Positions 14,936-31,878 of a stretch of DNA of 64,000 bases are shown in pieces. Made by a program: the position numbers and the translations under genes. The notes below the pieces were generated by a model. The model had not been told where the DNA came from. It was given only the letters and a program-made list of their open reading frames with translations, and made no database searches. Within the stretch, counting starts at the first letter, position 1; each line of letters begins with the position of its first letter. The DNA is from an uncultured Actinomycetes bacterium (GTDB taxonomy: Bacteria > Actinomycetota > Thermoleophilia > UBA2241): NCBI GenBank assembly GCA_963709345.1, contig CAVPVX010000007.1, positions 320,001-384,000 of the forward strand, written 5' to 3'.

Positions 14936-16325
14936 TCAGCGGTCGGCGGCGGCCTCCAGCCCGCCGGCGGCGTCGCGCCGCGACAGCCCGAGCAGCGCCG
15001 CGATGTTCGCCTTCGCCTCTTGCGGGCTGGGATCGTGCGGGTAGGTCGTCTCCGACTCGAAGAGCCGCCCCAGCCGCCGCTCGCCGCGGACCTCGTGCAT
15101 GGTGAGCGGGTCGCTGAGGTCGGCGACCGCGACGCCGAGCGCGCCGGCCACCGTCCGCTTCGCGTCTGCCAGTCTCATGCCCTTGGCCATCTCGAGCCGC
15201 GCCACCAGATCTCCGGCGGCGCGCAGCCCGTTCATTCCCGAGGCCACGGCATGGGCGACCGGCATCCCGAAGGAGTCGCCCGACCCGACCTACAAACCGT
15301 CCAGGTGCAGGATGTCGACGCAGGCACGCGAGCACCGTGAGATCGCGTCGACGGGCGCGAATGCGTTCATGGGCACGCCGCCCACGCCCATGCCGACGTT
15401 GGCGTGCACGGGGATCTTCGCGACCGCCATGCACGGCTTCATGAAGGTGAGCGCACGAGCCGTGTTCCACGCGACTGTGCGGCTCGTGTTCACGTTGACG
15501 GCCGGCCCGAAGACGGTGGCGCCGGCCTCCTGCACCACTTCGAGCTGGCCGGCGGGCTTGAGCCCGGCCAGCCGCACGCCCTTGTACTCGAGCTGCCCGT
15601 GCGTGCCGAGCACGAACTCGCCGGACATGCCGACCATGATGCCCATGTCCGGGTACTTCGCGCGCAGCCGCTCCACGGCGAGCAGCGTCGCGAGGAAGTC
15701 GGCGTCACCGCCGGCGCCGGCGGTGTCGAAGTTGATGCCGTCGGCGCCGGCCTCCCACATCTGCCCCGCCACGTACAGCATGTCGTCGACGGCCAGCTCC
15801 ACCGCGGTTTCCTGAGCGGCGCGCGCCTCGTCGATCCGCATCGCCGGGAGCAGCTCCGACCAGTTGCCGCAGGGGCCGTCGGGCTCGGAGTAGCGCCCAA
15901 GGTCCGGCTGCGCACCGTAGTGTACCGGGATAGTGACGCGCTCCTGGGCCTCCTTCATCGCCTGCTGCTCGGAGCCGACGATGGTCTTGACGGCCTTGTA
16001 CGAGTAGTCGATGTGGTAGAGCTCGCAGGAGTCCGATGCGAAGCATTGCTCGTACTGCAGCAGAGCGTCGACCCGACTGCCCTGCTGCTGCGTGCCGGTG
16101 CCGTCGAAGCTGAGGACGACTTCGTCGCCGATGTCCACAGCACTGAAGCGCGCCGAAGTCGCGAAGATATCCAGAAGGTGCTCGAGCTCGGCGTCCTCGA
16201 GCGGCGGCGACTTGGCCCGAGCTGGCCGCCGCCTCCGTGCCCTCCTCGACCTCGGCGCGCAGCTGACTGCGCGTCAGCGCCACTCCCGAGCCGTCGCCGA
16301 GCCGTGTGATGATCGTCGCTTCCAC
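14936..16325 (-). CDS. mtbB: MtbB-family methyltransferase copy 1; Pyl amber at 15290-15292; +1 frameshift near 16220 (pseudogene or sequence error)
   Basis: TRLGDG N-terminus; DYSYK, [59 protein letters not shown]. Removing one base near 16220 puts the amber at codon 345, as in the paralogs. Confidence 0.85.
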
Positions 16326-16390
16326 CGTGTTTCCCCCCTCGCATGTGCGGGCGCGCCGGCGCGGACCGGCCGACCGCGCCGTCCCGGAAG

Positions 16391-16419
16391 ATGCTACGCA
16401 GAGATCCCGCATCGGGCAA
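16391..16419 (-). promoter_or_regulatory. putative sigma70 promoter of mtbB copy 1
   Basis: TTGCCC-17 nt-TAGCAT on the minus strand. Confidence 0.5.
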
Positions 16420-16497
16420 TGGCTGATTGTGCGGCAAACCTCGCGTGCCGGTCGCGCGAACCTGCTCCCCCCGCATGCGAACGGCCAGAGCGACGCC

Positions 16498-16562
16498 TTG
16501 ACACTCCGGCGACGCACTCGGTATCGTGCGGGGACCATCGCGTTAGTTATGTGAACAACCAA
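16498..16562 (+). promoter_or_regulatory. promoter and putative TetR operator of mtbB copy 2
   Basis: TTGACA(16498)-18 nt-TATCGT, then GTTAGTTATGTGAACAACCAA (16542-16562), which matches the operator at 20337. Confidence 0.65.
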
Positions 16563-16601
16563 ATCCACTCGTCCAACGCCCGCGGGCGCCCGGGAGGGAC
16601 C

Positions 16602-17990
16602 ATGGCACAGCGCATCCCGACACGGCTCGGCGACGGCTCGCTCGCCGAGCTCACGCGAGCCGAGATCGAGACCGACCTGCACGCCGGGACTGAGGCGGCG
16701 GTCAAGCGAGCGAAGGTCGAGCCGCTCGCCCAGGGTGAACTCGACCACCTGCTCGACATCTTCACCTCCCCGGCCAAGTTCACCTCGGTGGACTACGGCG
16801 ACGAGGTGATCCTCGGGTTCGACGGCTCGGGCAACGCCGATCTCGGCGCGCCGATCCTCGAGCAGGTCGTCTACCAGAACCATCACGGCGCCGACATGAT
16901 CGAGCTCTGGCATCACGACTACTCGTACAAGGCCGTGCGCACGGTGCTCTCGTTCCAGACGCAGATGCTCAAGGACGCGCAGTTGCAGACGGTGATCCCG
17001 CTCAACTACGGCGCCATGCCCGACCTGGGGCGGTACTCGCAGCCCGACGGCCCCTGCCCCAACTGGTCGGAGCTCATGCCGCTGGGCAAGATCGCGGAGG
17101 CGCGGACCGCGCAGGAGGAGGCGGTCGAGCACGCCGAGCGCGACATGTGGTGCGTGGCCGAGGCGATGGTCGCCGCCGGCGCCGACGGCCTCGACTTCGA
17201 CACGGCCGGCGCGTCCGGCGACGCCGATCTGCTGGCCACACTCAACGTCACTCGGAGGATCCGTGAGACGTGGCCCGACATCGGCGTCGAGATCGGCCAG
17301 GCCGCCGAGCTCGTGCTCGGCATGCACGGTCAGCTCGAGTTCGACGGCGACCGGCTGGCCGGCCAGTGGCCGCTCGGGCAGCTCCGCGCCTGCACCGCCG
17401 CCGGCGCCACCATCTTCGGGCCGGCGGTCAATGTGAACACGACGAAGTCGCTGGCCTGGAACACCGCTCGCGCCTGCACGCTCGTGAAGCCGGTGACCGC
17501 CGAGGCCACCATCCCCGTCCACATGAACGCCGGGATGGGTGTCGGCGGCGTCCCGATGACACCGTATCCTCCGAGCGACGCCACGTCGCGCGCCTCCAAG
17601 GCGCTCGTCGACATCCTCAAGCTCGACGGGTTGTAGGTCGGCATCGGAGACCCCCTCGGGATGGCCTCCTCACACGCGCTCGCCTCGGGCATGGGCGGGA
17701 TGCGGACCGCCGGAGATCTGGTGGCCCGCATGCAGATGACCCGGGGAATGCGCCTTCCGCAGGCCAAGCAGTACGTCGCCGACAAGCTCGGCTGCTCGGT
17801 GCTCGACCTCAGCGACACCGTGGCGATGCACGACATCCGCCGCGACCTCGGCCTCGGCCGCATCCAGGTGCAGGACCTGACGTACGCCGACCACCCGGGC
17901 GCGATGGAGGCGAAGTTCCACATCGCCGACGTTCTCGGCATCCCGATCAACTCCGTGGAGTGCTTCAAAAGGCACGCCGGCGTGAAATAG
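16602..17990 (+). CDS. mtbB: MtbB-family methyltransferase copy 2, pyrrolysine-containing (amber 17634-17636), 462 aa
   Basis: Homology continues in frame through the TAG: [38 protein letters not shown]. Confidence 0.92.
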
Positions 17991-18062: not shown

Positions 18063-19533
18063 ATGGCTTCTCAGCTGGACCTCAGCACACGGCAGCCGCT
18101 GCTGCCGCTCGGCTCCGACTTCAAAGTGACGTTCTACGACGCGGCGCGTCTGGACCGCTACCGCGACGCCGTCCTGACGGTGCTCGAGCGCACCGGCGTG
18201 CGCTTCGGCTCGCCGAAGGCGCTCGCCGTCCTCGAGGAGCACGGCGCCGAGGTCGACCGCGCGTCCGGAGTCGTGCGCTTCGCGCCCGACCTCGTGGGGC
18301 GCGCGCTCGCGAGCGCCCCGCGCGACTTCTGGCTCGGCTCCCGCGACGGCACGCTCGACCTCGACCTCGCCGGCGACGAGACCTTCAACACGACCAACGG
18401 CTGCGGCACCGAGGTGATCGACTGGCGGACCGGCGTGCGCCGGCCGCCGACCAAGGACGACCTCTCGGCCATCACGCGGATGGTGGACTACCTGGGCTCG
18501 CTCCAGTTCTGGTGGCCCAACGTCGCCGCCGCCGACTGCGGCGACACCCACACCCTGCACGAGCTCGACGCGGCCTGGAACAACACGCAGAAGCACCTCC
18601 AGGGCATGGTGCAGGGCGAGCGCAAGGCGCGCTACGCGGTCGAGATGGCGACGGTGATCGCGGGAGGGGCGGAGCAGCTGCGCCGCCGCCCCCCGATGAG
18701 CGACCTCATCGGCACGGTCCAGCCGCTCGTCAACGACAAGGAAGGCATCGAGGCCGCGCTCGTGTTCGCCGCGGCCGGCATCCCCGTGTGCTTCGTGACC
18801 ATGCCCACCTACGGGACGACGGCGCCGGCGACCAAGGCCGGCGCCCTCGTGATGGGCTTCGCCGAGCTCATCAGCGCCGACGGTGTGCGTGCAGCTGGCG
18901 CATCCCGGCGCCCCGGTCATCCTCTTCCCCCTGCCGGTCCACGCCGACCCGCGCACGGCCGCGCTGGCGACGGCGCCTCTGAACCACCGCGGCCTCTTCC
19001 TGCCCGGCGAGCTCGTCCATCACTTCGGCCTGCCGTCGATGACGGGGTACGCCGGCACCGACGACGACCTGCCCGGCAGCTGGCTGGCCGCGGCGGAGAC
19101 GGCGCACACGGTCATGCTCGCCGGCATCGTCGGCTCGGAATTGATGACCACCATCGGCCTCACCAACCGGTACCAGCTGTTCACGCCCGAGCACATGATG
19201 CTCGACGACGACCTCTACCGGCGCGCGACGAGCGCGTTTCGCGACCTGGAACTGGACGAGGAGACGCTGGCGCTCGACGTCATCGACGCCGTCGGGCCCG
19301 GCGGGCACTTCCTGGGACAGCCGCACACCCGCCGTCACATGAAGGAGACCGTGGAGCGCTCGATCGGTCAGGAGATCGGCCCGGACGGCGCGCACCTGCG
19401 GGATGCGCTCGAGGTCGCGCGCGAGCGCGGCCTCGACATCCTCGAGAACTACGCGCCGGAGCCGCTGGACGCGGCCAAGGCGGCGGAACTCGCGAGGATC
19501 TGCGCCGCCGCGGACGCGGAACTGCGCGGGTAG
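18063..19533 (+). CDS. mttB: MttB-superfamily methyltransferase, non-Pyl (Gly at the Pyl site), +1 frameshift near 18878
   Basis: VLERTGVRF, TTAPATKAG, LALDVIDAVGPGGHFL.QPHT motifs. The frame switches at AELISA/TVCVQLAHPGAP; the paralog at 23919 is intact there. Confidence 0.8.
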
Positions 19534-19601: not shown

Positions 19602-20222
19602 TCAGTCCGGGTCGCCGCCAGACTCGACGTACCCGAACACCAGACGCCGCCAGAGATCGAAGGCGGGGCCGACGTCGAGGTCGGGGTCGGCCTGCACCTG
19701 CAAGGCGACTCCGTCGGCGATGGCCACGGTGAGCATCGCCAGCGGCTCGATGTGAGCGGGCGGCTCCTTGTCCACCGCATCCTTGAGCGCCCAGGCGTCG
19801 AGGCGTCGGTACCACTCGAAGAGGTCGCGCAGATGCGGCCGCAGGTGCTCGTCGCGGATGACGTGAGGGATGACCTCGAAGAACATGCGGTACGCATCCC
19901 GGTCTTTCGGCAGACCCTCGTGCAGGCGCATGAGCTGCGTCCGCCGCTCGTCCCCCGCCGGCACCGTCGTCAGCTGCTCGATGAGGTCCACGCTCTCCTG
20001 GTAGAGCACCGAGTCGACCAGCGCCGTAAGCAGACCCGCCTTGTTGCCGAAGTGGTAGCGGATCAGAGCGGGGTTCTCTCCGGCCTCGCGAGCGATGGTC
20101 GAGAACGTCAGCGCGCGAAACCCGTCGCGAAACAGCACGCGCTTGGCGGCGTCCAGGATGCGCACCGCCGTCGGCGGCAGATCCGGCGTTGGATCGCTTA
20201 TCGGCAGCTCGTACCTTCCCAT
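19602..20222 (-). CDS. TetR-family transcriptional regulator
   Basis: RILDAAKRVLFRDGFRALTFSTIAREAGENPALIRYHFGNKAGL HTH; divergent from the mtbB3 operon. Confidence 0.9.
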   Translation of the reverse strand: MGRYELPISDPTPDLPPTAVRILDAAKRVLFRDGFRALTFSTIAREAGENPALIRYHFGNKAGLLTALVDSVLYQESVDLIEQLTTVPAGDERRTQLMRLHEGLPKDRDAYRMFFEVIPHVIRDEHLRPHLRDLFEWYRRLDAWALKDAVDKEPPAHIEPLAMLTVAIADGVALQVQADPDLDVGPAFDLWRRLVFGYVESGGDPD

Positions 20223-20385: not shown

Positions 20386-21783
20386 TTGGAACGGTCCGTG
20401 CGCACACGACTCGGCGACGGCTCGCTCGTCGAGATGACGCCGAGCGAGATCCGCGCCGATCTCGTCGAGGGTATGGAGCTCGGCGCCCGCCGCGCCAAGG
20501 CCCCACCGCTGAGCGAGGCCGAGATCGACCACCTGCTCGACATCTTCGCCAGCGAGGCGAAGTTCAGCGCCGTCGACATGGGCGACGAGATCGTGCTCAG
20601 CTTCGACGGCACGGGCAATCTCGACTCCGGTGCGCGCGTCGACGAGCTCTACAGCTACCAGAGCCACCGCGGCGCCGACATGCTCGAGCTCTTCTCCATC
20701 GACTACTCGTACAAGGCGATCAAGACGATCCTGAGCTACGAGACCCAGGTGATGAAGGTCGCCCAGCTCAACACGCTGGCGCCGCTGCAGTACGGCGCCA
20801 TGCCCGACCTGGGCCGCTACTCCATGCCCGACGGCCCTATCCCCAACTGGTCGGAGCTCATGCCGCTCGGCCGCATCGAGGAAGCGCGCGACGCGCAGGT
20901 GGCGGCCATCGACCATGCCGTCGCCGACATGGTCTTCGTCGCCGAGGGCATGTGGGAGGCCGGCGCCGACGGCATGGACTTCGACACCGCTGCCGCGGCC
21001 GGCGACGGCGATCTGCTTGCCACGCTCACCGCGGTCGAGAAGATCAAGCACAGGCACCCCGACTGCGGGATCGAGCTCGGGATGGCCAGCGAGTGCGTCC
21101 TCGGGATGCACGGCGAGCTCACCTACAAGGGCCGGCGCCTCGCCGGGATGTGGCCCCAGGACCAGGTCCAGGTCGCCCAGGAGGCCGGCGCCACCATCTT
21201 CGGTCCGGCGGTCAACGTCAACACGACGAAGAGCGTGGCCTGGAACGTGGCGCGCGCCTGCACGATCATCAAGCCGGCGATGGCGGTCGCCGAGATCCCC
21301 GTGCACCCGAACGTGGGCATGGGCGTCGGCGGCGTGCCGATGAGCCCCTATCCCCCAGCCGACGCCGTGTCTCGCGTCTCGCGCGCACTGGTGGACATCC
21401 TCAAGTGCGACGGGTTGTAGGTGGGCGTGGGTGACCCTCTGGGCATGGCGTGCACGCACGCGCTCGCCTCGGGCATGGGTGGAATGCGGACCGCCGGAGA
21501 TCTGGTGGGCCGCATGCAGATGACCCGGGGCATGCGCCTCAAGCAAGCCAAGACCTACGTGGCCGGCAAGCTCGGCGTCTCCGTCGCCGACCTCGCCGAC
21601 CCCATCGCCATGCACGACGTGCGCCGGGACCTCGGCCTCGGCCGCATCCCGGTGCAGGAGCTCACGTACTCGACGCACGCCGGCGCCATGGAGGCGAAGT
21701 TCCACATCGCCGAGGTGCTGGGCGTCCCGATCAACAGCGTCACGCGCTTCCAGGAGTGCGCCGGGCTGCACACCCGGGCCTGA
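20386..21783 (+). CDS. mtbB: MtbB-family methyltransferase copy 3, pyrrolysine-containing (amber 21418-21420), 465 aa
   Basis: TTG start after [39 protein letters not shown]. Confidence 0.92.
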
Positions 21784-21811
21784 TGAAGCTCACGAGCAAA
21801 GGAGGGCCGCT

Positions 21812-23281
21812 GTGAAGCGGAACCTGCACGCCGGCGGCGCCCGCAGCCGCGGGCTGAGCGTCAACGTGTTCACCGACGCCGAACTGGACGAGATCCACCT
21901 CGCCACGCTCGAGGTGCTCGAGCGCACCGGCGTCTTCGTCGAGGACGGCGAGGCGATCGACATCTTCAAGGACGGCGGCTGCCGGGTCGACCGCGAGACG
22001 CGGATGGTCCACATCCCCCCGTTCGTCACCGAGGACGCGATCCGGTCGGCGCCCAGCAGGTACACCCTGTACGGGCGCGACCCGAAGAACGACGTCGTCA
22101 TGGAGCCGGGGCGGGTCGCCTTCACGAACTTCAGCGAAGGCCTCCGCGTGATCGACCCGGAGACGGGCGAGCAGCGCGAGTCCACCAAGCAGGACATCGC
22201 CGACATCGCCCGCCTCAACGATTACCTCAGCGAGATGGACACGCACGAGATCTCCGTCGGCGCCGCGGGAGTGCCGCCGTCCACGTGCGCGGTCCACAAC
22301 AGCGAGATGCAGTTCCTCAACACCACCAAGCCGATCGGCGTCGGTCCGCTCAGCCGGCTCGAGGTCAACGCGATCTTCCGTATGGCCGCGGAGATCGTCG
22401 GCGGCGAGGACGAGCTGCGCGAGCGGCCCATCCTGTACAGCGGGGTCTGCCCCGTCAGCCCGCTCAAGCTGCCGCGCGACGTGACCGAGGTGGTCATCGA
22501 GTCGTCGCGCTGGTGGATCCCGGACAACATCCTCAGCATGGCCATGGCCGGCGGATCCAGCCCGGTCACCCTGGCCGGCTCGCTCGTCACGCACAACGCC
22601 GAGGTGCTGGCCGGCATCACGCTGGCCCAGCTCACCGAGCGCGGCTGCCCCGTCATGTACGGCAGCTCGACCACCGCCATGGACCTCAAGCTCGCAGCCG
22701 CATCCGTCGGCTCGCCGGAGATCTCGCTGATCAGCGCCGCGGTGGCGCAGATGGCGCGGCGCTACCTGCTCCCCAGCTTCGTGGCCGGGTTGTAGACGGA
22801 TTCCAAGCTCGGTGACGCGCAGGCCGGTCACGAGAAGACCCTCACCGGACTCACGGCAGCGTTGGCAGGGGCCAACCTGATCTACGGGGCGGGGATGATC
22901 GAATCGGGCGTCACCTTCGACAGTGCGCAGTTCGTGATGGACAACGAGATCGCACGCATGATCAAGCACGTGGTCGGCGGCATTCGCGTGGACGACGAAA
23001 GCCTGGCGGTGGAGGACATCGCCAAGGTCGGCGCGTTCGGCGACTTCCTGAGCCTCGACGCGACGCTGACACACATGCGCGAGCTCAGCCAGCCGACGGT
23101 GCTCGACAGGCGCGTGCGCGAAGACTGGGAGGCGCGCGGGTCGACCGACCTCTACACCCGGTGCCTCGAGACCGCGCGCGACGTCCTGCATGAGTACCGG
23201 CCCGAGCCGGTACCCAACGACGTCGCCGCACGCATCCATGCCATCGTCGAAGAGACCGACCGCGCCGCCGGCGTCGGCTGA
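21812..23281 (+). CDS. mttB: trimethylamine:corrinoid methyltransferase MttB, pyrrolysine-containing (amber 22793-22795, codon 328), 489 aa
   Basis: YLLPSFVAGL*TDSKLGDAQAGHEKT...ALAGANLIYGAGM matches the canonical Pyl-MttB AGx-O-(S/T)DxK...AGHE pattern; SMAMAGGSSPVTLAG and HNAEVLAGI motifs. Confidence 0.93.
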
Positions 23282-23292
23282 AGGAGACCCGT

Positions 23293-23919: not shown

Positions 23920-25412
23920 TGCCCGCGCCGCCACCCGCGGGCGCTCCTGCAGAACAGGCCGGACCGCGGCAGCAGCCGTTGGCGCCCCTGCGGTCCGACT
24001 TCCCGTGGCGCTTCCATGACGAGGCGGAAGTGGAGCCGCTACGCGAAGCGACCCTTCGGCTCCTCGAGACGACGGGCGTGCGTTTCGAGTCGCCAAAGGC
24101 GCTCGCGATCCTGAAGAGAGCCGGCGCCAGGGTGGACGAGGGTTCCGACCTCGTCCGTCTGCCTCGCCGGCTGGTCGCCGAGGCGCTCGCCCTGGCGCCG
24201 CGGCGGTTCACGCTCGGCGCCCGGGACGCCGCCTGCGACCTCGAGCTCGGCTCCAGCGCGACATACGGCACTACCGACGGCTGCGGCGTGGAGGTCGTCG
24301 ACTGGCACTCAGGCGAGCGTCGCTCGTCCACCAAGGCCGACCTCGAGGCGATCACGCGTATGCAGGACTGCCTCGGCTCCATCTGCTACTGGTGGCCCAC
24401 GGTGAGCGCCGGCGACTGCGGTGAGACGGCCCAGCTCCACGAGATCGAGGCCGGCTGGAACAACACGAGCAAGCACCTCATGGGCATGGTGCAGGGCGAG
24501 GCGCTGGCGAAGGCGGCCGTCGAGATGGCGACCACCGTGGCCGGCGGGGCCGAAGAGCTCCGCCGCCGACCTGTCATGAGCGACCTCATCGGCACGGTCT
24601 CGCCGCTCACGCACGACAAGGACGGGATCGAGGCCGGCCTGGTCTTCGCCGAGGCCGGCATCCCCGTCTGCTACGTCACCATGCCGAACCTCGGCACGAC
24701 GGCGCCGGCGACCAAGGCCGGAGCCTTCGTCGTGGGCGCCGCCGAGATCGTCGCCGCGGCGGTACTCCATGAACTCGCTTCGCCCGGCGCACCGGTGATC
24801 GGGTCGATCATGCAGATCTACGCCGACCCGCGCACGGCGCTCACCATGACATCCCCCCTCGACGACCGCTGCCGCTTCCTGGCCACGGAGCTGCTGCACA
24901 GCTTCGGCCTCCCGGCGCTCGGGCCGTTCGGCGGCACCGATGCGGCGGCGCCGGGGACATGGCTCGCCGGCGTCGAGACGATGCTCCAGTTGTTGCAGGT
25001 GCCGCTCGACGGCTGCGAGCTGTACACCGGTATCGGTCTCACCAACACGTATCAGCTGTTCACGCCCGAGGCCCTGATCCTCGACGACGATCTCTACCAC
25101 CGCGCGAGGCACGCCTTCCTCGACATCCCCATGGATGAGGAGTCGCTCGCGCTTGACGTGATCGAGGCCGTGGGTCCCGGAGGGCACTTCCTCGCCCAGC
25201 CACATACGCGCCGGCACATGCCAGACGCGGTCCTGCGCGCGGTGAGCCAGGAGATCGGCCCCGACGGCCAGCACTACCGCGACCCGGTGGAGGTGGCGCG
25301 AGAGCGCGCGCTGGCCATCCTCGAGCGCTACGTCCCGCAACCGCTGGAGGAGAACGCTCAGGCGGAACTGCGAAGGATCGTCGCAGCGGCAGACCGCGCG
25401 GTGCGCGGCTAG
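23919..25412 (+). CDS. mttB: MttB-superfamily methyltransferase, non-Pyl (Gly at the Pyl site)
   Basis: Close paralog of the 18063 gene; FGLPALGPFGGTDA aligns with the Pyl region; GPGGHFLAQPHT. Confidence 0.85.
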   Translation: MPAPPPAGAPAEQAGPRQQPLAPLRSDFPWRFHDEAEVEPLREATLRLLETTGVRFESPKALAILKRAGARVDEGSDLVRLPRRLVAEALALAPRRFTLGARDAACDLELGSSATYGTTDGCGVEVVDWHSGERRSSTKADLEAITRMQDCLGSICYWWPTVSAGDCGETAQLHEIEAGWNNTSKHLMGMVQGEALAKAAVEMATTVAGGAEELRRRPVMSDLIGTVSPLTHDKDGIEAGLVFAEAGIPVCYVTMPNLGTTAPATKAGAFVVGAAEIVAAAVLHELASPGAPVIGSIMQIYADPRTALTMTSPLDDRCRFLATELLHSFGLPALGPFGGTDAAAPGTWLAGVETMLQLLQVPLDGCELYTGIGLTNTYQLFTPEALILDDDLYHRARHAFLDIPMDEESLALDVIEAVGPGGHFLAQPHTRRHMPDAVLRAVSQEIGPDGQHYRDPVEVARERALAILERYVPQPLEENAQAELRRIVAAADRAVRG

Positions 25413-25439: not shown

Positions 25440-26249
25440 CTACTCGAGCAGCATGCGGTCGACGGCGAACGCCTCGCCGGCGACCTCGTGGAACTTCTCG
25501 ACGAGGTCGCTCACCTGGAGCGCCGCCTTCTGCTCCTTGTCGATATCGAGGACGACGCGACCGCCGTGCATCATGACGAGACGGTCGCCGTAGCGCAGCG
25601 CCAGCTCCATGTTGTGCGTCACCATGAGCGTCGTGAGGCCGCGCTCGGCGATGATCGCGGCCGTGAGGTCCATGATCGTGGCCGCGACCTTTGGGTCGAG
25701 CGCGGCCGTGTGCTCGTCGAGCAGCAGGAGGCTCGGCTCGGCGATGGTCGCCATGAGCAGCGACATCGCCTGCCGCTGGCCGCCGGAGAGCTTGTTGACG
25801 CCGGCTTTGAGCCGGTCCTCCAAGCCCATACCGAGTCGTGAGAGCTGCGCGCGCATGACCTCACGGCGGCGGTGCGTCACGCCGCGACGCAGGCCGCTGC
25901 GCTTCTGGCGCATCAGCGAGATGGCGAGATTCTCCTCGATGGTCATCGACGGCGCCGTGCCGGCGCGGGGATCCTGGAACACCCTGCCGATCAGGCGACT
26001 GCGCACGTGCTCGGCCTGCCGCGTGACGTCGCGGTCACCGAGTTGGACCTTGCCGGCGCTGACGGGGAAGGTGCCGGCGACCGCGTTGAGCAGCGTCGAC
26101 TTGCCCGAGCCATTGGAGCCGATGATCGTCACGAACTGGTCCGCGGGGACGACCAGATCGATCCCGTTGAGGGCGACGACCTCGTTGGCCGTGCCGGGGA
26201 AGAACACCTTGCGCAGCCCGCTTATCTCGAGGGGAGCCGGGGCGCTCAC
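25440..26249 (-). CDS. ABC transporter ATP-binding protein
   Basis: GSNGSGKST, LSGGQRQ, LLLLDEHTAALDP motifs. Confidence 0.92.
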   Translation of the reverse strand: MSAPAPLEISGLRKVFFPGTANEVVALNGIDLVVPADQFVTIIGSNGSGKSTLLNAVAGTFPVSAGKVQLGDRDVTRQAEHVRSRLIGRVFQDPRAGTAPSMTIEENLAISLMRQKRSGLRRGVTHRRREVMRAQLSRLGMGLEDRLKAGVNKLSGGQRQAMSLLMATIAEPSLLLLDEHTAALDPKVAATIMDLTAAIIAERGLTTLMVTHNMELALRYGDRLVMMHGGRVVLDIDKEQKAALQVSDLVEKFHEVAGEAFAVDRMLLE

Positions 26250-27148
26250 AGCCGCACCACCTTGCGGCGGACGGTGGGTATGGAGAGCGCGATGACGACG
26301 AGCAGCGCCGTGAGCAGCTTGAGATCGGTGGGCGCGATGCCGAGGCGCAGGCTGATGGCTATGAGCAGCCTGTACACGATGGAGCCACCGATGACGCTGA
26401 AGAGCACCCAGCTGACACTGCGCACGCCGAAGATGACCTCGCCCATGATCACCCCGGCGAGGCCGGCGACGATCGTCCCGATACCCATGCCCACATCGGC
26501 GAAGCCCTGCTGCTGGGCGACCAGCGACCCGGTCAGGGCGACGAGCCCGTTGGCGATGGACAGCCCGACGATGCGCGTGAAGTTGGTGTTGGTGCCCATG
26601 GCCCGGATCATCTGCTCGTTGTCGCCGGTGGCCAGCAGCGTGAGCCCGAACTCCGTGTGCAGCAGCCAGTCGAGGATGTACTTGACGACGATGGCGAGCG
26701 CGGCGACGACGAGGACGACGTTCCACCCGACCATGGTGAGCGAGAACAGCGCCCCGATCTTGTCGAAGATGACCTCGACACCGAGCAGCGGGGTGTTGCT
26801 GCGCCCCATGATCCGCAGGTTGACGGTGTACAGCGCCGTCATCGTGAGGATGCCGGCGAGCAGCTTGGGACCGTAGTTGGTCGAGTTGTTGTCCCCGGAC
26901 TTGAGCAGCAGATGCAGGAAGCCGGTGACGACCCCGGCGCAAAGCCCCGCGCCCACGCCGGCGGCGGTGGCGACGAGCGGCGACTGCCCGCTCACGATGA
27001 GCGCTCCCGTGACGGCGGCTCCAAGCGGCAGACTGCCGTCGACGGTGAGGTCGGGAAAATCGAGGACGCGGAAGGTGAGGAAGACGCCGAGCACCATGAA
27101 GCAGTAGATGAGGCCCTGCTCGAGGGCGCTGGACATGATCACTTCCAC
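26246..27148 (-). CDS. ABC transporter permease (TrpY/aromatic amino acid-type family)
   Basis: FRVLDFPDLTVDGS.PLG; GFADVGMGIG; multiple transmembrane segments. Confidence 0.9.
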   Translation of the reverse strand: MEVIMSSALEQGLIYCFMVLGVFLTFRVLDFPDLTVDGSLPLGAAVTGALIVSGQSPLVATAAGVGAGLCAGVVTGFLHLLLKSGDNNSTNYGPKLLAGILTMTALYTVNLRIMGRSNTPLLGVEVIFDKIGALFSLTMVGWNVVLVVAALAIVVKYILDWLLHTEFGLTLLATGDNEQMIRAMGTNTNFTRIVGLSIANGLVALTGSLVAQQQGFADVGMGIGTIVAGLAGVIMGEVIFGVRSVSWVLFSVIGGSIVYRLLIAISLRLGIAPTDLKLLTALLVVIALSIPTVRRKVVRL

Positions 27149-27166
27149 GTGCCGCTCACTTCCGTA

Positions 27167-27205
27167 GTCGGGGCCGGGACCGCTGTTCGCGGTCCCGGCC
27201 CCGAC
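27167..27205. terminator. intercistronic 17-bp hairpin after the substrate-binding protein gene
   Basis: GTCGGGGCCGGGACCGC-TGTTC-GCGGTCCCGGCCCCGAC. Confidence 0.6.
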
Positions 27206-27245
27206 GATTCTATCGTGCCTGCGCCCATTGTGGCCGCCAGACGCC

Positions 27246-28256
27246 TCAGAACTTGCTGACGGCCTCGCTCACGAGGTCGGCCGGGATGGTGACGCCCTGG
27301 TCCGCGGCGGCCGTCTCGTTGATCGAGAGCTGCAGGTTGGCCGCGTACTCCACCGGGATCTCCGCGATCGGCGTGCCGCCGAGGATCATCGCGGCCTGGT
27401 AGCCGGCCTGCATGCCGAGATCCTTGTAGTCGAAGCCGTACCCGGCGGCAGCGCCGCGCTTGACGCTGTCGGTGTCGCCGGCGAGCAGCGGGATCTTGGC
27501 CTCGTTGCAGACCTTGACGATCGCCTCGAGGGCGGTGACGGCGGTGTTGTCGCCGATCACGGCGATGGCGTCGACGCGGCCGACGAGCGACTTGGCAGCG
27601 GCCTGCACCTCGGAGGAGTTGCCTGCCGTGGCGTCGACGATCTCGAGCCCCATGGCGCCTGCGGCCTCTTTGGCGGCCTCCACGATGTAGACCGAGTTGG
27701 ACTCGCCGGCGTTGTAGACGATGCCGACCGACTTGGCGTCGGGGTTGAACTGCTTCGCCAGTTCAAGGATGGGCTCGACGGGCTGCAGGTCGCTGACGCC
27801 CGTGACGTTGGCATCGGGCGACTCGGGGTTCGCGACCAGACCGGCGCCCACGGGGTCGGTCACGGCGGTGAAGACGATCGGCGTCGTCTTGTCGGCCTTC
27901 ACCACCGCCTGGGTGGTCGGGGTCGCGACGCCGAGAATCAGATCGAGCCCGTCGGCGGCGAACTTCTGGGCGATGCTGGCGGTCGTCGCCATGTCGCCCT
28001 CGGCGTTCTGCATGTCGTAGGTGACGTTGCTGAAGCCCTTCTCGGCGAGGGCTTCCTTGAAGCCTTCGACGGCGGCGTCGAGCGCCGGGTGGCTGACGAT
28101 CTGCGTGATACCGATCTTGTACGCTTTGGTGGTGTCGGCGCTGGCGCTCGGGCTGCTCTCGGTGTCCCCGTCGCCGCCGCAACCGGCGATGACGCCGGCG
28201 AGGGCCACGATGGCGAGCAGCGCCATGAGCAGGCTCAGCTTGAATGCGCGAGGCAT
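27246..28256 (-). CDS. ABC transporter substrate-binding lipoprotein (TrpX-like, ABC_sub_bind)
   Basis: IAGC lipobox; IGITQIVSHPALDA; TAVTDPVGAGLV; NVTGVSD; AAGGAG RBS. Confidence 0.9.
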   Translation of the reverse strand: MPRAFKLSLLMALLAIVALAGVIAGCGGDGDTESSPSASADTTKAYKIGITQIVSHPALDAAVEGFKEALAEKGFSNVTYDMQNAEGDMATTASIAQKFAADGLDLILGVATPTTQAVVKADKTTPIVFTAVTDPVGAGLVANPESPDANVTGVSDLQPVEPILELAKQFNPDAKSVGIVYNAGESNSVYIVEAAKEAAGAMGLEIVDATAGNSSEVQAAAKSLVGRVDAIAVIGDNTAVTALEAIVKVCNEAKIPLLAGDTDSVKRGAAAGYGFDYKDLGMQAGYQAAMILGGTPIAEIPVEYAANLQLSINETAAADQGVTIPADLVSEAVSKF

Positions 28257-28334
28257 CGTTCTCCTTTTTCCTGTTGTCCACGGACGAATGCGACATTCTA
28301 GTGCGCGGCGCCCGCCGGGCACAACCCCCAGGCT

Positions 28335-28348
28335 CATGAATATTCATG
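28335..28348. promoter_or_regulatory. AT-rich perfect palindrome upstream of the ABC promoter
   Basis: CATGAATATTCATG, just upstream of a minus-strand TTGTGC-18 nt-TAGAAT promoter. Confidence 0.5.
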
Positions 28349-28517: not shown

Positions 28518-28602
28518 TCTCTCTCGACGGCACACCTGTCGTCGTGGCCGGCCGCCGCGCGACGGGCGGGCCTCCCGCCCCTCCCCGCGCCGGCTCGTAC
28601 CT

Positions 28603-29988
28603 TTACAGGCGCGCCCGCTCCTTGAACCGCTCGACGCAGTTGATCGGGATATCGAGCAGCTGGCTGATGTTGAACTTGGCCTCCATCATGCCCGCCTCGC
28701 CGGGGTGCGTGGCGGACGTCACGCTGAGCAGCCCCAGGCCATGCTCCTTGCGGATCAGCTCCATGGCCACGGGGTCGCTGAGGTCGCGCGTCGAACAGCC
28801 GAGCTTGCCGGCCACGTATTCCTTGGCTTCCTTGAGACGCATGCGTCTGGTCATCTGCATCCGAGCCACGAGATCTCCCGCTGCCCGCATACCGCCCATG
28901 CCGGACGCCTGCGTGTGGGCCGACTCCATACCGAGAGCGTCGCCCGTGCCCACCTAGTAGCCGTCGATCTTGAGGATCTCGACGAAGGCCTTGCTCGCCC
29001 GCGAGGTCGCGTCGGCCGGCGGGTAGAGGCACGTGGGGACGCCGCCGACGCCCATGCCCACGTTCACGTGGACGGGGATCGTGGCGACCTCGGCGGCCGG
29101 CTTGATGAAGGTGATCGCCCGGGCGATGTTCCAGGCGGTCGACTTGCCTGTGTTGATGTTGACGGCCGGCCCGTAGATGCTGGCGCCGGCCTCGGTGACC
29201 ATGCGCAGTTGGTCCTTGGGCCACATTCCGGCGAGCCTGCTGCCGTCAAACTCGAGCTGGCCGTGCATGCCGAGCACGAACTCGGCCGCCATGCCGATCT
29301 CGATGCCGAGCCACGGGTACTTCGTGCGCAGCTTGCGGCAGGCGGTGAGGGCGGCGAGGAAGTCGGCGTCGCCCGCCGCCCCGGTCGTGTCCATGTCGAT
29401 GCCGTCGGCGCCGGCCTCGATCATGGCGTCGGCGACGAAGCCGATGTCCTCGACCAGCATCTCGCACGCCTCCACCTGGGCGTCGCGCGCCTCGGCGATC
29501 TTGCCCATCGGCAGCAGCTCGGACCAGTTGGGAATGGGGCCGTCCGGCTTGGAATACCGGCCCAGGTCGGGCATGGCGCCGTACTGCACGGGGTTGGTGA
29601 GCAGCGCCTGGGCGATCTTCATGGTCTGGCCCTCGTGGGCCACGTTGGTCTTGACGGCCTTGTACGAATAGTCGGCCTGCCACAGCTCGACCATGTCGAT
29701 GCCGACGACCGTCTCGTAGCTCTGCAGGTCTTGCACGCGGTTGCCGATGTGCTTGGTCCCCGTACCGTCGTTCGACATGACGACTTCGTCGCCGATGTCG
29801 ACGGCGGTGAACCGCGCCGCCGAGGCGTAGATGTCGAGCAGGTGGTCGAGCTCCTCCTGCGTGAGCTCGGGCACCTTGGCCTTCTTGGCCGCGATCTGGG
29901 TACCGGCCTCGAGATCGGCCTTGATCTCGGAACGCGTCAGCTCGACGAGCGACCCGTCACCCATGCGTGTGGGGATCCTGGGCTCCAA
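28603..29988 (-). CDS. mtbB: MtbB-family methyltransferase copy 4, pyrrolysine-containing (amber 28954-28956), 461 aa
   Basis: [38 protein letters not shown]. A TTG start puts the amber at codon 345; alternative ATG at 29994. Confidence 0.92.
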
Positions 29989-30311
29989 TGGCATCACCTC
30001 CGTGCGTCGTCCGGGTCGACCGCTTACGGCGTGGCGGTCACCAGGGCCTGCGGAGAGCCACGTGTGAGAGAAGCGAATCGACCGCTGGTAAGCAGGCCTC
30101 GCGCGCAACTGTACAGCAGCCCGGCGACGGCGCGCCACCGGGTCGCGACGACCCCGAGGCCGGTCTTCAGGCGGCGGCCGGCGAGCGCCGCGGAGGGCGG
30201 GGCGGGAGAAACCACGAACGTCGCCAAGGCGATCGTGACGGCCACGCGCGCCGCGTCACGTCACTCCATGCCCCGCATCCGGCGCACCCGCCCCGCGCCG
30301 CACGCGCACTC

Positions 30312-30387
30312 TGGAGCCGGCGGGCGGAATCGAACCGCCGACCTGCCGCTTACAAGGCGGCTGCTCTGCCAGCTGAGCTACGCCGGC
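30312..30387 (-). tRNA. tRNA-Thr(TGT)
   Basis: Reverse complement GCCGGCGTAGCTCAG...GCCGC-CTTGTAA-GCGGC...GGTTCGATTCC...GGCTCCA. Confidence 0.96.
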
Positions 30388-30477
30388 CCGGTGCCAAGTC
30401 TACCGCAGAGGAGCCATGCCGCGGATCGGGGATGGAGTCGCGGTCGAGGATCCGTCATCCACGCGTGTCCACGGTCG

Positions 30478-31878
30478 TCAGGAGACGGCAGGACCTCGGC
30501 GCGTCCGCTCCGCGAACGCCTCGACCGAGCGCACCGGCAGGTCGAGCACATCCGTGATGGTGAACTTGGCCTCGATCGCCAGCGCGTCGGCGGTCGTCGC
30601 CGTGTCCTCGCTGGGGATCGTCCCCAGCCCGAGCTCACGTCGCACGTCCCACATGACCACCGGGTCGCTCAGATCTCCCGGCTCCACGCCGAGCTTGTCC
30701 GCCACGGCCGCCTTGGCCTCGGGGAGTCGCATCCTTCGCGTCAGCTGCATGCGGGCCACCAGATCTCCGGCGGTCCGCAGTCCGCCCATACCCGACGCGA
30801 CACCATGCCCTATCCCTTGGCTGTGGTTGTCGCCGGCTCCTATCTACAAACCGTCCAGCCGCAGGATGTCGACGCAGGCGCGCGAGGCGCGCGAGACGGC
30901 ATCGACCGGCGGCAGCGCGTGCATGGGCACGCCGCCGACGCCCATGCCGCCGTTCATGTGTACGGGGATCTCGGCGGCGCGGGAACACGGCTTGACGATG
31001 GTGCAGGCGCGCGCGACGTTCCAGGCGACCGACTTGCCGGTGTTGACGTTGACGGCCGGACCGAAGACCGAGGCGCCGGCCTGCGCCGCCAGGCGCATCT
31101 GCGCCTCGGGCCAGAGCCCGGCCAGCCGTACGCCCTCGTACTCGAGCTCGCCGTGCATGCCGAGGACGAACTCGCTCGCCATGCCGATCTGGATGCCCCA
31201 GTCCGGGTATTTCGCGCGGATCCGCTCGATGGCGCGCAGCGCCGCCAGGAAGTCGGCGTCGCCCGCGGCGCCGGCGGTGTCGAGGTTGATGCCGTCGGCG
31301 CCCGCCTCGTACATGCCCTCGGCGACGTAGACGATGTCGTCGACGGCCAGCTCGACGGCCGCCTCCTGGGCAGCGCGGGCGTCGTCGATCCTGCCCAGCG
31401 GCAGTAGCCGCGACCAGTTGGGCACCGGCCCGTCGGGTTCCGTGTAGCGCCCGAGGTCCGGCATGGCGCCGTAGTTGCACGGAATAGTCAGCAGGAGTTG
31501 CGCCCGGCGCATCGTCGCCTGCTCGAAGGGCAGCACCGGCTTGATCGGCTTGAAGGAGTAGTCGTGATGGTAGAGCTCGACGGTGTCGGTGCAGACTGTC
31601 TGCTCGTAGTTCTGCAGGTCGTTGATGCGTGAGCCGGCGTCCTGGCTGCCGACGCCGTCCGAGGTGAGCACCACCTCGTCGCCGATGTCGACGGCGGTGA
31701 ACCGCGCGGGGCTGGCGAAGATGTCGACCAGGTGGCCGAGCTCACCCTCGTCGAGCGGCTCGACCTTGGCTCGCCGGACGGCCGCCTCCGTGCCGTCGCG
31801 TACCTCGGCTTCGATGCCGGCACGGCTCATCCGCACCAGCGAGCCGTCGCCCATCCGTGTCGGGATGACGCTGTCCAT
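30478..31878 (-). CDS. mtbB: MtbB-family methyltransferase copy 5, pyrrolysine-containing (amber 30844-30846), 466 aa
   Basis: [45 protein letters not shown] RBS. Confidence 0.92.

What the first reader, a model, noticed from the sequence alone, without database searches (positions are those of the whole stretch)
14936..31878. Expanded pyrrolysine-dependent methyltransferase cluster (5 MtbB + Pyl-MttB) in an apparent Actinomycetota anaerobe
Seen: six genes whose homology runs in frame through a TAG. All five MtbB paralogs carry it at codon 345 (DG[L/Y]*[V/I]GxGD) and the MttB at codon 328 (AGL*TDSK). They sit with a corrinoid protein, two non-Pyl MttBs, a TetR and an ABC transporter. Known: these are the Pyl positions of methanogen MtbB and MttB, and the best-described bacterial Pyl users are Firmicutes and Deltaproteobacteria. 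Inference: this organism uses the 22nd amino acid for anaerobic N-demethylation, with an unusually large MtbB expansion. Standard gene callers split all six genes.
Basis: partly seen in the sequence, partly recalled or inferred. Interest (0 to 1): 0.92.

Follow-up and report, generated by a model that had tools for sequence, protein, structure and literature searches.

The report
Pyrrolysine methyltransferase gene cluster, Thermoleophilia
An uncultured high-GC soil actinobacterium carries six methylamine methyltransferase genes that read an in-frame TAG as the 22nd amino acid, pyrrolysine, and it has the full machinery to do so; the trait is real but has already been reported briefly for this lineage.

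Summary
Five MtbB genes and one MttB gene each carry one in-frame TAG at the pyrrolysine (Pyl) position. They sit beside a corrinoid protein, two non-Pyl MttBs, a TetR regulator and an ABC importer.

The genome (3.1 Mb, 98% complete) holds pylB, pylC, pylD, tRNA-Pyl(CUA), pylSn and pylSc on another contig. Codons after the TAG are under purifying selection (dN/dS 0.12-0.31). The MttB TAG aligns with Pyl334 of PDB 7XCL. All six sites match Rfam PYLIS_2 or PYLIS_3.

TAG is still a common stop (about 22% of crude ORFs), RF1 is present, and five genes of this cluster end in TAG. Pyl therefore competes with termination.

The closest relatives are Thermoleophilia MAGs. PylS occurs in 73 of 79 sampled genomes of the same family, and MtbB gives 1-12 matches per genome, so the expansion is a family trait.

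Two genes here, MtbB(a) and one non-Pyl MttB, are frameshifted, perhaps by assembly error.

Prior art exists: Guo 2022 (two Actinobacteria with PylRS) and Ellenbogen 2023 (Actinobacteriota MAGs expressing Pyl mttB and mtbB). This scan also noted the same trait in other genomes of the lineage. Verdict: a new member of a known kind.

One extra result: a hairpin about 65 nt after the TAG shows strong covariation. In one MttB paralogue that lost its TAG, the codons that form the hairpin are gone.

The parts
14936..16325 (-). MtbB(a), a Pyl-type dimethylamine methyltransferase paralogue. In-frame TAG at 15290-15292. Frameshift near 16215-16225, which may be a pseudogene lesion or an assembly indel.
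   Evidence: PF09505 E 1.2e-140. TIGR02368 392 bits against a cut-off of 369. Frames shown. The orthologue in G402 is intact.
16602..17990 (+). MtbB(b). In-frame TAG at 17634-17636. The gene itself ends on TAG at 17988-17990.
   Evidence: PF09505 527.7 bits, profile 4-462 of 463. TIGR02368 410 bits. Stop context.
18063..19533 (+). Non-Pyl MttB-superfamily gene 1. Frameshift near 18880. Ends on TAG.
   Evidence: The two halves match PF06253 positions 32-279 and 283-493. The orthologues in G402 and G401 lie in a single frame.
19602..20222 (-). TetR-family regulator
   Evidence: PF00440 E 4e-12, plus a weak BetI-type C-terminal match.
20386..21783 (+). MtbB(c). In-frame TAG at 21418-21420.
   Evidence: PF09505 E 5e-165. 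TIGR02368 419 bits. dN/dS after the TAG is 0.31.
21812..23281 (+). Pyl-type MttB (trimethylamine methyltransferase). In-frame TAG at 22793-22795.
   Evidence: TIGR02369 681 bits against a cut-off of 525. The TAG aligns with X334 of PDB 7xcl. dN/dS after the TAG is 0.17.
23293..23919 (+). Corrinoid (B12-binding) methyl carrier protein. Ends on TAG.
   Evidence: PF02310 and PF02607. Best NCBIfam hits are MtgC and MtbC types, all below their cut-offs.
23988..25412 (+). Non-Pyl MttB-superfamily gene 2. The start coordinate is approximate. Ends on TAG.
   Evidence: PF06253 E 8e-58. TIGR02369 scores only 294 bits, below the 525 cut-off.
25440..28337 (-). ABC importer: ATPase 25440-26240 (ends on TAG), permease 26246-27148, binding protein 27246-28337.
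   Evidence: PF00005. PF02653 and PF04392.
28603..29994 (-). MtbB(d). In-frame TAG at 28954-28956.
   Evidence: PF09505 E 6e-167. TIGR02368 431.5 bits.
30312..30387 (-). tRNA-Thr(UGU), lying between MtbB(d) and MtbB(e).
   Evidence: ARAGORN. Rfam tRNA 70.5 bits.
30478..31878 (-). MtbB(e). In-frame TAG at 30844-30846.
   Evidence: PF09505 E 4e-162. TIGR02368 413.7 bits.
21418..21517 (+). PYLIS_2 element of MtbB(c). The same element occurs at 17634-17733 (+), 15193-15292 (-), 28857-28956 (-) and 30747-30846 (-). Its conserved hairpin spans nt 67-98 counted from the T of TAG.
   Evidence: Rfam RF02509 46.8-68 bits against a gathering score of 36. Covariation shown.
22793..22892 (+). PYLIS_3 element of MttB. 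Inside it is a 6-bp hairpin, GUUGGC-AGGN-GCCAAC, at 22861-22876.
   Evidence: Rfam RF02510 71.8 bits against a gathering score of 38. Rare codons fixed in this stretch.

Best explanation
This is a gene cluster for corrinoid-dependent demethylation of methylated amines, in an uncultured Thermoleophilia bacterium that genetically encodes pyrrolysine.

Shown: six genes (five MtbB, one MttB) need their single in-frame UAG read as an amino acid. The genome supplies tRNA-Pyl(CUA), the split synthetase PylSn plus PylSc, and PylB, PylC and PylD to make pyrrolysine.

Inferred from the family's known chemistry: Pyl in the active site binds the amine. The methyl group passes to the Co(I) corrinoid protein encoded at 23293-23919. 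A RamA/AcsV-like activase encoded elsewhere keeps that protein reduced. An MtbA/MtaA-type (URO-D family) methyltransferase passes the methyl on, probably to tetrahydrofolate. It is then oxidised through MTHFR and formyl-THF synthetase rather than turned into acetate, because no acetyl-CoA synthase was found.

Shown: UAG is not reassigned. It still ends about a fifth of genes, including five genes in this cluster, and RF1 is present. Pyl insertion must therefore compete with termination.

Inferred: insertion is helped or tuned by local context. That context includes a UUG codon before the UAG and a conserved PYLIS hairpin about 65 nt downstream.
For: Pyl machinery, all above curated cut-offs:
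- PylSc 318 bits.
- PylD 212 bits.
- PylB 427 bits and PylC 280 bits.
- PylSn 122 bits.
- tRNA-Pyl with anticodon CUA directly after pylD. It folds with a short D-loop and a short variable loop.

The genes are read through the TAG:
- Family models span the TAG.
- The MttB TAG aligns with X334 of 7xcl.
- The TAG aligns with a TAG in the G402 orthologue for 6 of 6 genes. dN/dS after the TAG is 0.12-0.31, against 0.10-0.31 before it.
- The TAG column is invariant in 81 of 81 MtbB sequences.
- All 150 listed MtbB rows from family genomes carry exactly one TAG.
- Rfam PYLIS_2 matches five sites and PYLIS_3 one site, all above gathering score.

UAG is still a stop:
- 484 of 2160 crude ORFs end in TAG.
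- prfA scores 483 bits against a cut-off of 423.
- rho and infC end in TAG.
- Five cluster genes end in TAG.

The pathway:
- Corrinoid protein.
- Corrinoid activase.
- Four URO-D family genes.
- MTHFR and FTHFS.
- No AcsB.

Conservation: the whole 18.5 kb cluster is collinear with G402 at 78-89% nucleotide identity. G401 is collinear over most of it (77-90%) but lacks MtbB(a) and MtbB(e).
Against: - No protein-level evidence exists. Pyl incorporation is inferred.
- No substrate is known for any of the five MtbB paralogues. They score only just above the MtbB equivalog cut-off (392-431 against 369), while two other copies in the genome score 475 and 517.
- The methyl acceptor is not identified. 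The only strong pterin-binding hit is dihydropteroate synthase.
- Two genes are frameshifted here.
- TAG-ending genes show no nearer back-up stop than TGA-ending ones (median 84 against 63 codons). There is thus no genomic sign of adaptation to read-through.
- The PYLIS hairpin lies too far from the UAG to touch the decoding ribosome, so its role is open.
Confidence: 0.88

Rival explanations
1. Most or all of the five MtbB paralogues in the window are not dimethylamine methyltransferases. Each would act on a different secondary or tertiary methylated amine, using the same Pyl chemistry.
For: - The paralogues are only 44-68% identical.
- Each sits in its own clade with orthologues from several other MAGs.
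- The window copies score 392-431 bits on TIGR02368, just above the 369 cut-off. Two other copies (C11:181561, C2:387335) score 517 and 475 and carry an 11-residue insert the rest lack.
- The cluster carries its own ABC importer, TetR regulator and two non-Pyl MttBs, which in known cases act on quaternary amines (for that statement).
Against: - All ten copies still pass the curated equivalog cut-off.
- The residues around Pyl are invariant.
- No structure or assay of any MtbB is available. PDB has no sequence relative, so substrate pockets cannot be compared.
Confidence: 0.35
2. The TAGs are ordinary stops. The genes would be split or decaying, and only the N-terminal fragments would be made.
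For: - TAG is a common stop in this genome and RF1 is present.
- Two methyltransferase genes in the window carry frameshifts, and many MttB hits genome-wide are fragmented.
Against: - A complete pyl gene set and tRNA-Pyl are present.
- dN/dS after the TAG is 0.12-0.31 in all six genes.
- The TAG is never replaced or lost in 81 of 81 MtbB sequences.
- The family profiles continue to their last positions.
Confidence: 0.03
3. UAG is reassigned genome-wide to pyrrolysine, as recently reported for some archaea.
For: Five cluster genes 'end' in TAG, and in MtbB(b) the frame stays open into the next gene.
Against: - RF1 is intact.
- 484 of 2160 crude ORFs end in TAG.
- rho and infC end in TAG where their Pfam domains end, and are followed by separate ribosomal protein genes.
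- In a screen of TAG-joined ORFs, all 10 candidates sent to Pfam turned out to be two adjacent genes. About 38 joins with an extension over 200 codons were left untested.
Confidence: 0.02
4. The frameshifts in MtbB(a) and non-Pyl MttB 1 are assembly indels, not real pseudogenes.
For: - The orthologues in G402 (and G401 for the MttB) are intact.
- Those two genomes carry their own single-base indels in the otherwise conserved corrinoid gene, one of them in a G run.
- MtbB(a) still shows dN/dS of 0.12-0.19.
Against: - The shift in MtbB(a) is not in a long homopolymer.
- About ten MttB or MtbB copies genome-wide are fragmented, although 98% of marker genes are found. A large family in flux is expected to shed copies.
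Confidence: 0.55

Closest known systems
Methanosarcina MtbB / MttB with MtbC / MttC and the pylTSBCD cassette (Pyl-dependent methylamine:corrinoid methyltransferases; PDB 7XCL for MttB)
   Same: - Same protein families, above curated cut-offs (TIGR02368, TIGR02369).
- UAG at the same residue: X334 of 7xcl for MttB.
- A cognate corrinoid protein next to the genes.
- PYLIS_2 and PYLIS_3 regions after the UAG.
   Different: - This organism is a bacterium, so PylS is split into PylSn and PylSc.
- It has no methanogenesis or acetyl-CoA synthase context.
- It has 10-11 MtbB copies, against three in Methanosarcina (recalled, not from a call).
- TAG is a frequent stop here.
Pyl-decoding bacteria of Firmicutes and Deltaproteobacteria (e.g. 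Acetohalobium arabaticum, Desulfitobacterium, Bilophila, the Olavius delta-1 symbiont)
   Same: - Split PylSn plus PylSc, as stated for all bacterial PylRS in Guo 2022 (passage read).
- Pyl-type MttB alongside many non-Pyl MttB homologues.
- UAG kept as a stop.
   Different: - Different phylum, and GC content of 69%.
- MtbB, rather than MttB alone, is strongly expanded.
- The gene order is pylBCD-tRNA, with pylSn about 1.1 kb further on and pylSc about 2 kb beyond that on the opposite strand.
- The organism names in this entry are recalled, not taken from a call.
Actinobacteriota MAGs of Stordalen Mire that express Pyl-encoding mttB and mtbB (Ellenbogen et al. 2023, PMC10805028)
   Same: Same lineage. 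MAGs titled bog_752, palsa_645 and palsa_647 are among the closest MtbB relatives. The paper names genus Bog-752 and states that some Actinobacteriota MAGs express Pyl mttB and mtbB (passages read).
   Different: In the passages I read, the paper gives one sentence. It does not describe pyl genes, copy numbers, cluster anatomy, stop-codon usage or PYLIS elements. Its supplements were not opened.
Rfam PYLIS_2 (RF02509) and PYLIS_3 (RF02510), from Have et al. 2013 (PMC3639795)
   Same: All six post-UAG regions match above gathering score. The MtbB hairpin I found by covariation is the 3' hairpin of the PYLIS_2 consensus structure.
   Different: - The 5' hairpin of PYLIS_2 is mostly unpaired here.
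- The perfect 6-bp MttB hairpin of this lineage is not part of the PYLIS_3 consensus structure.
- Have et al. found no significant common structure for mttB (passage read).

Membership tests
MtbB, dimethylamine:corrinoid methyltransferase (TIGR02368 / PF09505) | Full-length match above the curated equivalog cut-off. | tested here: met
   The five window copies score 392.1-431.5 bits against a cut-off of 369.1. The other five copies in the genome score 370.2-516.9 bits.
MtbB, dimethylamine:corrinoid methyltransferase (TIGR02368 / PF09505) | A single in-frame UAG at the conserved Pyl site. | tested here: met
   One TAG falls in the same column in 81 of 81 sequences. The Rfam PYLIS_2 model, which starts at the UAG, matches all five sites. 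No direct alignment to an experimentally characterised MtbB sequence was made.
MtbB, dimethylamine:corrinoid methyltransferase (TIGR02368 / PF09505) | Methyl transfer from dimethylamine to the cognate corrinoid protein. | not testable with these tools
   This needs an enzyme assay. The substrate of the divergent paralogues is open.
Pyl-type MttB, trimethylamine methyltransferase (TIGR02369) | Match above the equivalog cut-off, with the UAG at the position of Pyl334. | tested here: met
   681 bits against a cut-off of 525. The TAG aligns with X334 of 7xcl_A. The two neighbouring non-Pyl MttBs fail this test: gene 2 scores 294 bits.
Genetically encoded pyrrolysine system | tRNA-Pyl with CUA anticodon, PylS (Sn plus Sc), and PylB, PylC and PylD. 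| tested here: met
   All lie within C11:11.6-19.1 kb of the same genome.
Genetically encoded pyrrolysine system | A Pyl residue found in the protein. | not testable with these tools
   This needs mass spectrometry.
Rfam PYLIS_2 / PYLIS_3 | Covariance-model match above gathering score directly after the UAG. | tested here: met
   PYLIS_2 scores 46.8-68 bits (gathering 36) at five sites. PYLIS_3 scores 71.8 bits (gathering 38) at one site.
Rfam PYLIS_2 / PYLIS_3 | Stimulation of UAG read-through. | not testable with these tools
   Only indirect evidence is available: covariation, and loss of the hairpin codons in one paralogue without a TAG.
Methylotrophic acetogen (Wood-Ljungdahl) | Acetyl-CoA synthase AcsB/CdhC. 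| tested here: not met
   No PF03598 match in a 98% complete genome. The methyl-branch enzymes MTHFR and FTHFS are present.
Genome-wide UAG-to-Pyl code | UAG no longer used as a stop, and RF1 dispensable. | tested here: not met
   TAG ends 484 of 2160 crude ORFs. prfA is present above its cut-off.

The most novel reading that the evidence does not exclude
This Thermoleophilia family may be a large, overlooked guild of non-methanogenic, non-acetogenic Pyl users, with two linked features.

1. Its eight or so old MtbB paralogue groups, including all five in this window, would each demethylate a different methylated amine rather than dimethylamine alone.

2. The hairpin about 65 nt downstream of the UAG would be a working recoding or regulatory signal. 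It is kept by compensatory synonymous changes in MtbB. It is built from fixed rare codons in MttB. It is lost in the one MttB paralogue that replaced UAG by a Leu codon.
Probability: 0.3. Interest if true: 0.75.

Novelty: new member of a known kind. Interest (0 to 1): 0.5.

Why it matters
Pyrrolysine use is rare in bacteria and has been studied almost only in methanogens, Firmicutes and Deltaproteobacteria.

In this case a whole family of common soil and wetland actinobacteria carries the system. PylS was found in 73 of 79 sampled genomes of the family. Each genome has many MtbB and MttB copies.

These bacteria compete with methylotrophic methanogens for methylamines, which bears on methane budgets.

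Standard gene callers split every one of these genes. Metabolic surveys therefore under-count them.

The lineage also gives a natural test bed for two open questions:
- How a cell tolerates UAG as both a stop and a sense codon within one operon.
- Whether PYLIS hairpins do anything.

Tried and rejected
Structure of MtbB(c).
- AlphaFold2 was run on the 10-sequence alignment A1. It gave mean pLDDT 66, with the stretch around the Pyl site below 50.
- Foldseek against PDB then gave no match at E <= 0.001. Only weak TIM-barrel hits appeared, such as DHDPS, BHMT and the MetH Hcy domain.
- This was too weak to use, and no pocket comparison was possible.
- PDB holds no sequence relative of MtbB.

Expression.
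- No public run holds more than 24% of the sampled words of 20386-23919.
- When laid at 88% likeness, short contigs from three RNA-labelled runs (X17, X18, X20) cover parts of the stretch, and a few bridge the MtbB(c) TAG.
- These contigs are about 90% alike, so they come from relatives or paralogues. RNA libraries can also hold DNA, and contigs show no level of expression. I draw no conclusion on expression from them.

Whole-window RNA stability.
- The 100 nt after each TAG is not unusually stable. The z-scores are +0.08 to -0.63 in four of six genes, and -1.6 and -2.9 in two.
- Upstream control windows range from +1.3 to -2.0.
- Only the local hairpin stands out.

Back-up stops after TAG-ending genes: none nearer than after TGA-ending genes.

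Other Pyl proteins.
- Of the 61 TAG-joined ORF pairs that passed the coding filter, I set aside the MtbB- and MttB-sized pairs and the roughly 38 with an extension over 200 codons. The latter were taken to be the next gene and were not tested.
- The remaining 10 went to Pfam, and all proved to be two adjacent genes.

In-frame TGA in four MttB hits: the TGA lies before the true start in all four, so this is not selenocysteine.

Rfam at gathering score found nothing in the pyl locus. tRNA-Pyl is seen only by ARAGORN.

Literature.
- The search 'Thermoleophilia + pyrrolysine' gave one unrelated paper.
- The search 'Thermoleophilia + methylamine + methyltransferase + corrinoid' gave none.

Full report
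**What is in the window.**

ORF lists under table 11 and with TAG read through, together with family scans, give this gene map:
- MtbB(a), 14936-16325 (-)
- MtbB(b), 16602-17990 (+)
- non-Pyl MttB 1, 18063-19533 (+)
- TetR, 19602-20222 (-)
- MtbB(c), 20386-21783 (+)
- Pyl-type MttB, 21812-23281 (+)
- corrinoid protein, 23293-23919 (+)
- non-Pyl MttB 2, about 23988-25412 (+)
- ABC ATPase, permease and binding protein, 25440-28337 (-)
- MtbB(d), 28603-29994 (-)
- tRNA-Thr, 30312-30387 (-)
- MtbB(e), 30478-31878 (-)

All but the N-terminally frameshifted MtbB(a) match their family profile from end to end across it.

In (d) the TAG is codon 347 counted from the first ATG.

Two things were missed:
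- MtbB(a) has a frameshift near 16215-16225.
- Non-Pyl MttB 1 has a frameshift near 18880.

**The pyrrolysine machinery exists.**

The window is C7:320001-384000 of a 3.11 Mb genome in 11 contigs. The genome is 98% complete and has 69% GC.

Contig C11 carries, in order:
- pylB, pylC and pylD
- a tRNA with anticodon CUA that ARAGORN calls tRNA-Pyl
- pylSn, about 1.1 kb further on
- a second corrinoid protein
- pylSc, on the opposite strand

All of these score above the curated NCBIfam cut-offs.

The tRNA folds into a cloverleaf. It has one base between the acceptor and D stems, a 5-nt D-loop and a 2-nt variable region. That these are typical tRNA-Pyl traits is recalled, not tested here.

**The TAGs are translated.**

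1. The Pyl-type MttB scores 681 bits on TIGR02369 (cut-off 525). Its TAG aligns with the X at residue 334 of PDB 7xcl.
2. All ten full-length MtbB copies in the genome pass TIGR02368 (370-517 bits; cut-off 369.1).
3. Against the orthologues in genome G402, TAG pairs with TAG in 6 of 6 genes. dN/dS after the TAG is 0.12-0.31, the same range as before it (0.10-0.31).
4. I aligned 81 MtbB sequences: 10 own copies and 71 full-length relatives. Seven of the 78 loci were dropped as partial or irregular (L074, L075, L077, L080, L095, L101, L105). Every sequence has one stop, a TAG, in the same column.
5. All 150 listed MtbB rows from 40 family genomes carry exactly one TAG.
6. The 100 nt starting at each TAG match Rfam PYLIS_2 (five sites, 46.8-68 bits, gathering 36) or PYLIS_3 (71.8 bits, gathering 38).

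**UAG is still a stop.**

- A crude caller based on GC3 finds TGA 1591, TAG 484 and TAA 85 among 2160 ORFs.
- RF1 is present.
- rho and infC end in TAG.
- Five genes inside this cluster end in TAG: MtbB(b), both non-Pyl MttBs, the corrinoid protein and the ABC ATPase.
- After MtbB(b) the frame stays open for 783 codons, running into the next gene.
- TAG-ending genes have no nearer back-up stop than TGA-ending ones (median 84 against 63 codons).
- I screened ORFs joined by a TAG with a coding signature on both sides. Apart from MtbB and MttB, all 10 candidates tested with an extension of up to 200 codons were pairs of adjacent genes. Longer joins were not tested.

Pyl therefore seems confined to the two methyltransferase families and must compete with termination.

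**Who it is, and how widespread the trait is.**

The closest MtbB relatives in named genomes are almost all MAGs titled Thermoleophilia, Actinomycetota or Actinomycetes bacterium. One is titled delta proteobacterium (L073). The list includes bog_752, palsa_645 and palsa_647. G000 itself is unnamed, so its class is inferred from these titles.

PylSc was found as follows:
- 73 of 79 genomes of the same family.
- 9 of 61 genomes of a second family in the class.
- 0 of 260 genomes from ten other families of the class.
- In an even sample of the phylum, only G000 and one genome of that second family, out of 401.

MtbB occurs in 38 of 40 family genomes that are at least 90% complete. They give 1-12 matches each, with a median of 7.5. 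Matches are not exact copy numbers.

Pyl-type MttB occurs in 27 of 31 family genomes, with 1-8 matches each.

Two genomes of the same genus, each 1.7-1.8 Mb, lack all three.

The expansion is therefore a family trait.

**The paralogues are old.**

Identities among the ten own copies are 44-68%. In a tree, each of the five window copies groups with orthologues from several other MAGs.

Two copies outside the window (C11:181561 and C2:387335) sit on a separate long branch. They have an 11-residue insert and score highest on the MtbB model, at 517 and 475 bits. The window copies score 392-431.

This leaves room for different substrates, but nothing here tests that.

**Synteny and frameshifts.**

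The 18.5 kb cluster is collinear with G402 (C6:24.9-47.2 kb), with the main blocks at 78-89% nucleotide identity. G401 is collinear over most of it but lacks MtbB(a) and MtbB(e).

The orthologues of MtbB(a) (in G402) and of non-Pyl MttB 1 (in both genomes) are intact. In turn, G402 and G401 each carry a one-base indel in the corrinoid gene.

The frameshifts may therefore be assembly errors. Real decay of single copies in a large family is not excluded. About ten MttB or MtbB copies genome-wide are fragmented.

**Metabolic context (inferred).**

Present in the genome:
- a RamA/AcsV-like corrinoid activase
- four URO-D family genes, one of which is probably hemE
- MTHFR and formyl-THF synthetase
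- cytochrome bd
- an NrfH/NrfA-like pair

Not found:
- acetyl-CoA synthase
- heme-copper oxidase
- a pterin-binding methyltransferase; the strong PF00809 hit is dihydropteroate synthase

The likely fate of the methyl groups is transfer to THF and then oxidation, in an anaerobe or microaerophile.

**The post-UAG hairpins.**

*MtbB.* RNAalifold on 105 nt from the TAG of the 81 MtbB sequences predicts one helix only, at columns 70-95. I tested the 13-pair hairpin at columns 67-98:
- 92.9% of cells pair, against 85.0% in shuffles (0 of 500 shuffles reach the observed value).
- The covariation score is 0.204, against 0.071 (0 of 500).
- Slid controls pair at only 31-43%.
- The covarying pairs are all third codon positions. 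Pair 78-87 shows CG 50, GC 14, UG 12. Pair 75-90 shows CG 40, GC 12, AU 8, UG 8, UA 2. Pair 72-93 shows GC 33, CG 12, AU 6.
- Fixed G-U pairs point to RNA on the sense strand.
- The Gly codon whose third base (A) opens the tetraloop is GGA in 81 of 81 sequences, although GGA makes up only 7.3% of Gly codons genome-wide.
- Across the whole gene this is the only conserved structure: -7.67 kcal/mol, next best -1.84, over 135 windows.
- It is the 3' hairpin of the Rfam PYLIS_2 consensus, so it is not new. The sequences are related, so the shuffle counts are not probabilities.

*MttB.* In the Pyl-type MttB genes a perfect 6-bp hairpin sits at nt 69-84 from the TAG. It is built from GCG TTG GCA GGN GCC AAC.
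- TTG is used in 25 of 26 distinct sequences and GCA in 26 of 26. Genome-wide, TTG is 4.3% of Leu codons and GCA is 4.7% of Ala codons.
- It is the top structure of that gene.
- It is not part of the PYLIS_3 consensus structure.
- Two MttB genes have the same peptide motif but no TAG, and both use common codons that break the hairpin. One is a Pyl-type paralogue in G128 with Leu in place of Pyl. The other is a non-Pyl paralogue on C5 of G000.
- These are two cases, so this is a hint and not a test.

*Codon before the UAG.* When the residue before the MtbB UAG is Leu, its codon is TTG in 61 of 64 sequences.

**Prior art.**

- Guo et al. 2022 (PMC9630628; passage read) list PylRS genes in two Actinobacteria.
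- Ellenbogen et al. 2023 (PMC10805028; passages read) state that some Actinobacteriota MAGs express Pyl-encoding mttB and mtbB, and name genus Bog-752. Their supplements were not opened and may hold more.
- Have et al. 2013 (PMC3639795; passages read) predicted a consensus structure after the UAG of mtbB and none for mttB.
- Searches for Thermoleophilia with pyrrolysine or with corrinoid methyltransferase terms found nothing relevant.
- Earlier notes of this scan describe the same trait in other genomes of the lineage.

**Verdict.**

It is a new member of a known kind. The useful additions are the family-wide extent of the trait, the coexistence of sense and stop UAG within one operon, and the covariation evidence for the PYLIS hairpin.

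Noticed in passing
L160 (G128:C4:790934-795334), second gene at about 2999-4401: This Pyl-type MttB paralogue scores 652 bits on TIGR02369 but has no TAG; a Leu codon (CTC) sits at the Pyl position. It keeps the ALAGAN peptide but uses common codons (GCG CTG GCG GGC GCG AAC), which break the hairpin present in all TAG-bearing copies.
   Followed up: partly
G000:C2:391900-393261 (-) (L127) and G000:C7:776285-777439 (+): These are two MtmB (monomethylamine methyltransferase, PF05369) homologues with no internal stop. One is full length (profile 1-450). They are therefore MtmB-like proteins without pyrrolysine, sitting in a Pyl-using genome.
   Followed up: partly
window 15293-15295, 17631-17633, 21415-21417, 22790-22792, 30847-30849: The codon just before the Pyl UAG is the rare Leu codon TTG in five of the six window genes. 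Among the 81 MtbB sequences it is TTG in 61 of the 64 that have Leu there. Genome-wide, TTG makes up 4.3% of Leu codons.
   Followed up: partly
G000 genome-wide: The 3.1 Mb genome gives 64 matches to the MttB family. That corresponds to roughly 40 or more genes, mostly non-Pyl. About ten are split into fragments by frameshifts.
   Followed up: partly
G002 and G014 (same genus as G000): These two near-complete genomes of 1.7-1.8 Mb lack PylS, MtbB and Pyl-type MttB. This looks like loss of the whole trait together with genome reduction.
   Followed up: no
L124 (G000:C11:57914-60118) and L125 (G000:C11:465428-466405): rho and infC both end in TAG and are followed in the same frame by rpmE and rpmI. 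Any UAG read-through would therefore fuse them to the ribosomal proteins.
   Followed up: partly
L122 (G000:C7:473316-474494): An NrfH-like and a cytochrome c552 (NrfA-like) gene lie next to each other. This suggests nitrite ammonification as a possible electron sink.
   Followed up: no
L005 2349-4679 (G000:C11:8348-10678): Just upstream of the pylBCD genes lie an aldehyde:ferredoxin oxidoreductase gene, a 4Fe-4S ferredoxin gene and, after them, a nitroreductase/BluB-like gene.
   Followed up: no
L136 about 12400-12490 (G402) and the G401 orthologue: In both related genomes the corrinoid protein gene of the syntenic cluster has a one-base insertion relative to the window. This is likely a sequencing error of those assemblies.
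   Followed up: partly
Pyl-type MttB alignment, nt -12 to +38 around the TAG: A second, weaker consensus helix (-7.0 kcal/mol) pairs bases just before the TAG with bases about 31-38 nt after it. This would place the UAG inside a loop.
   Followed up: no
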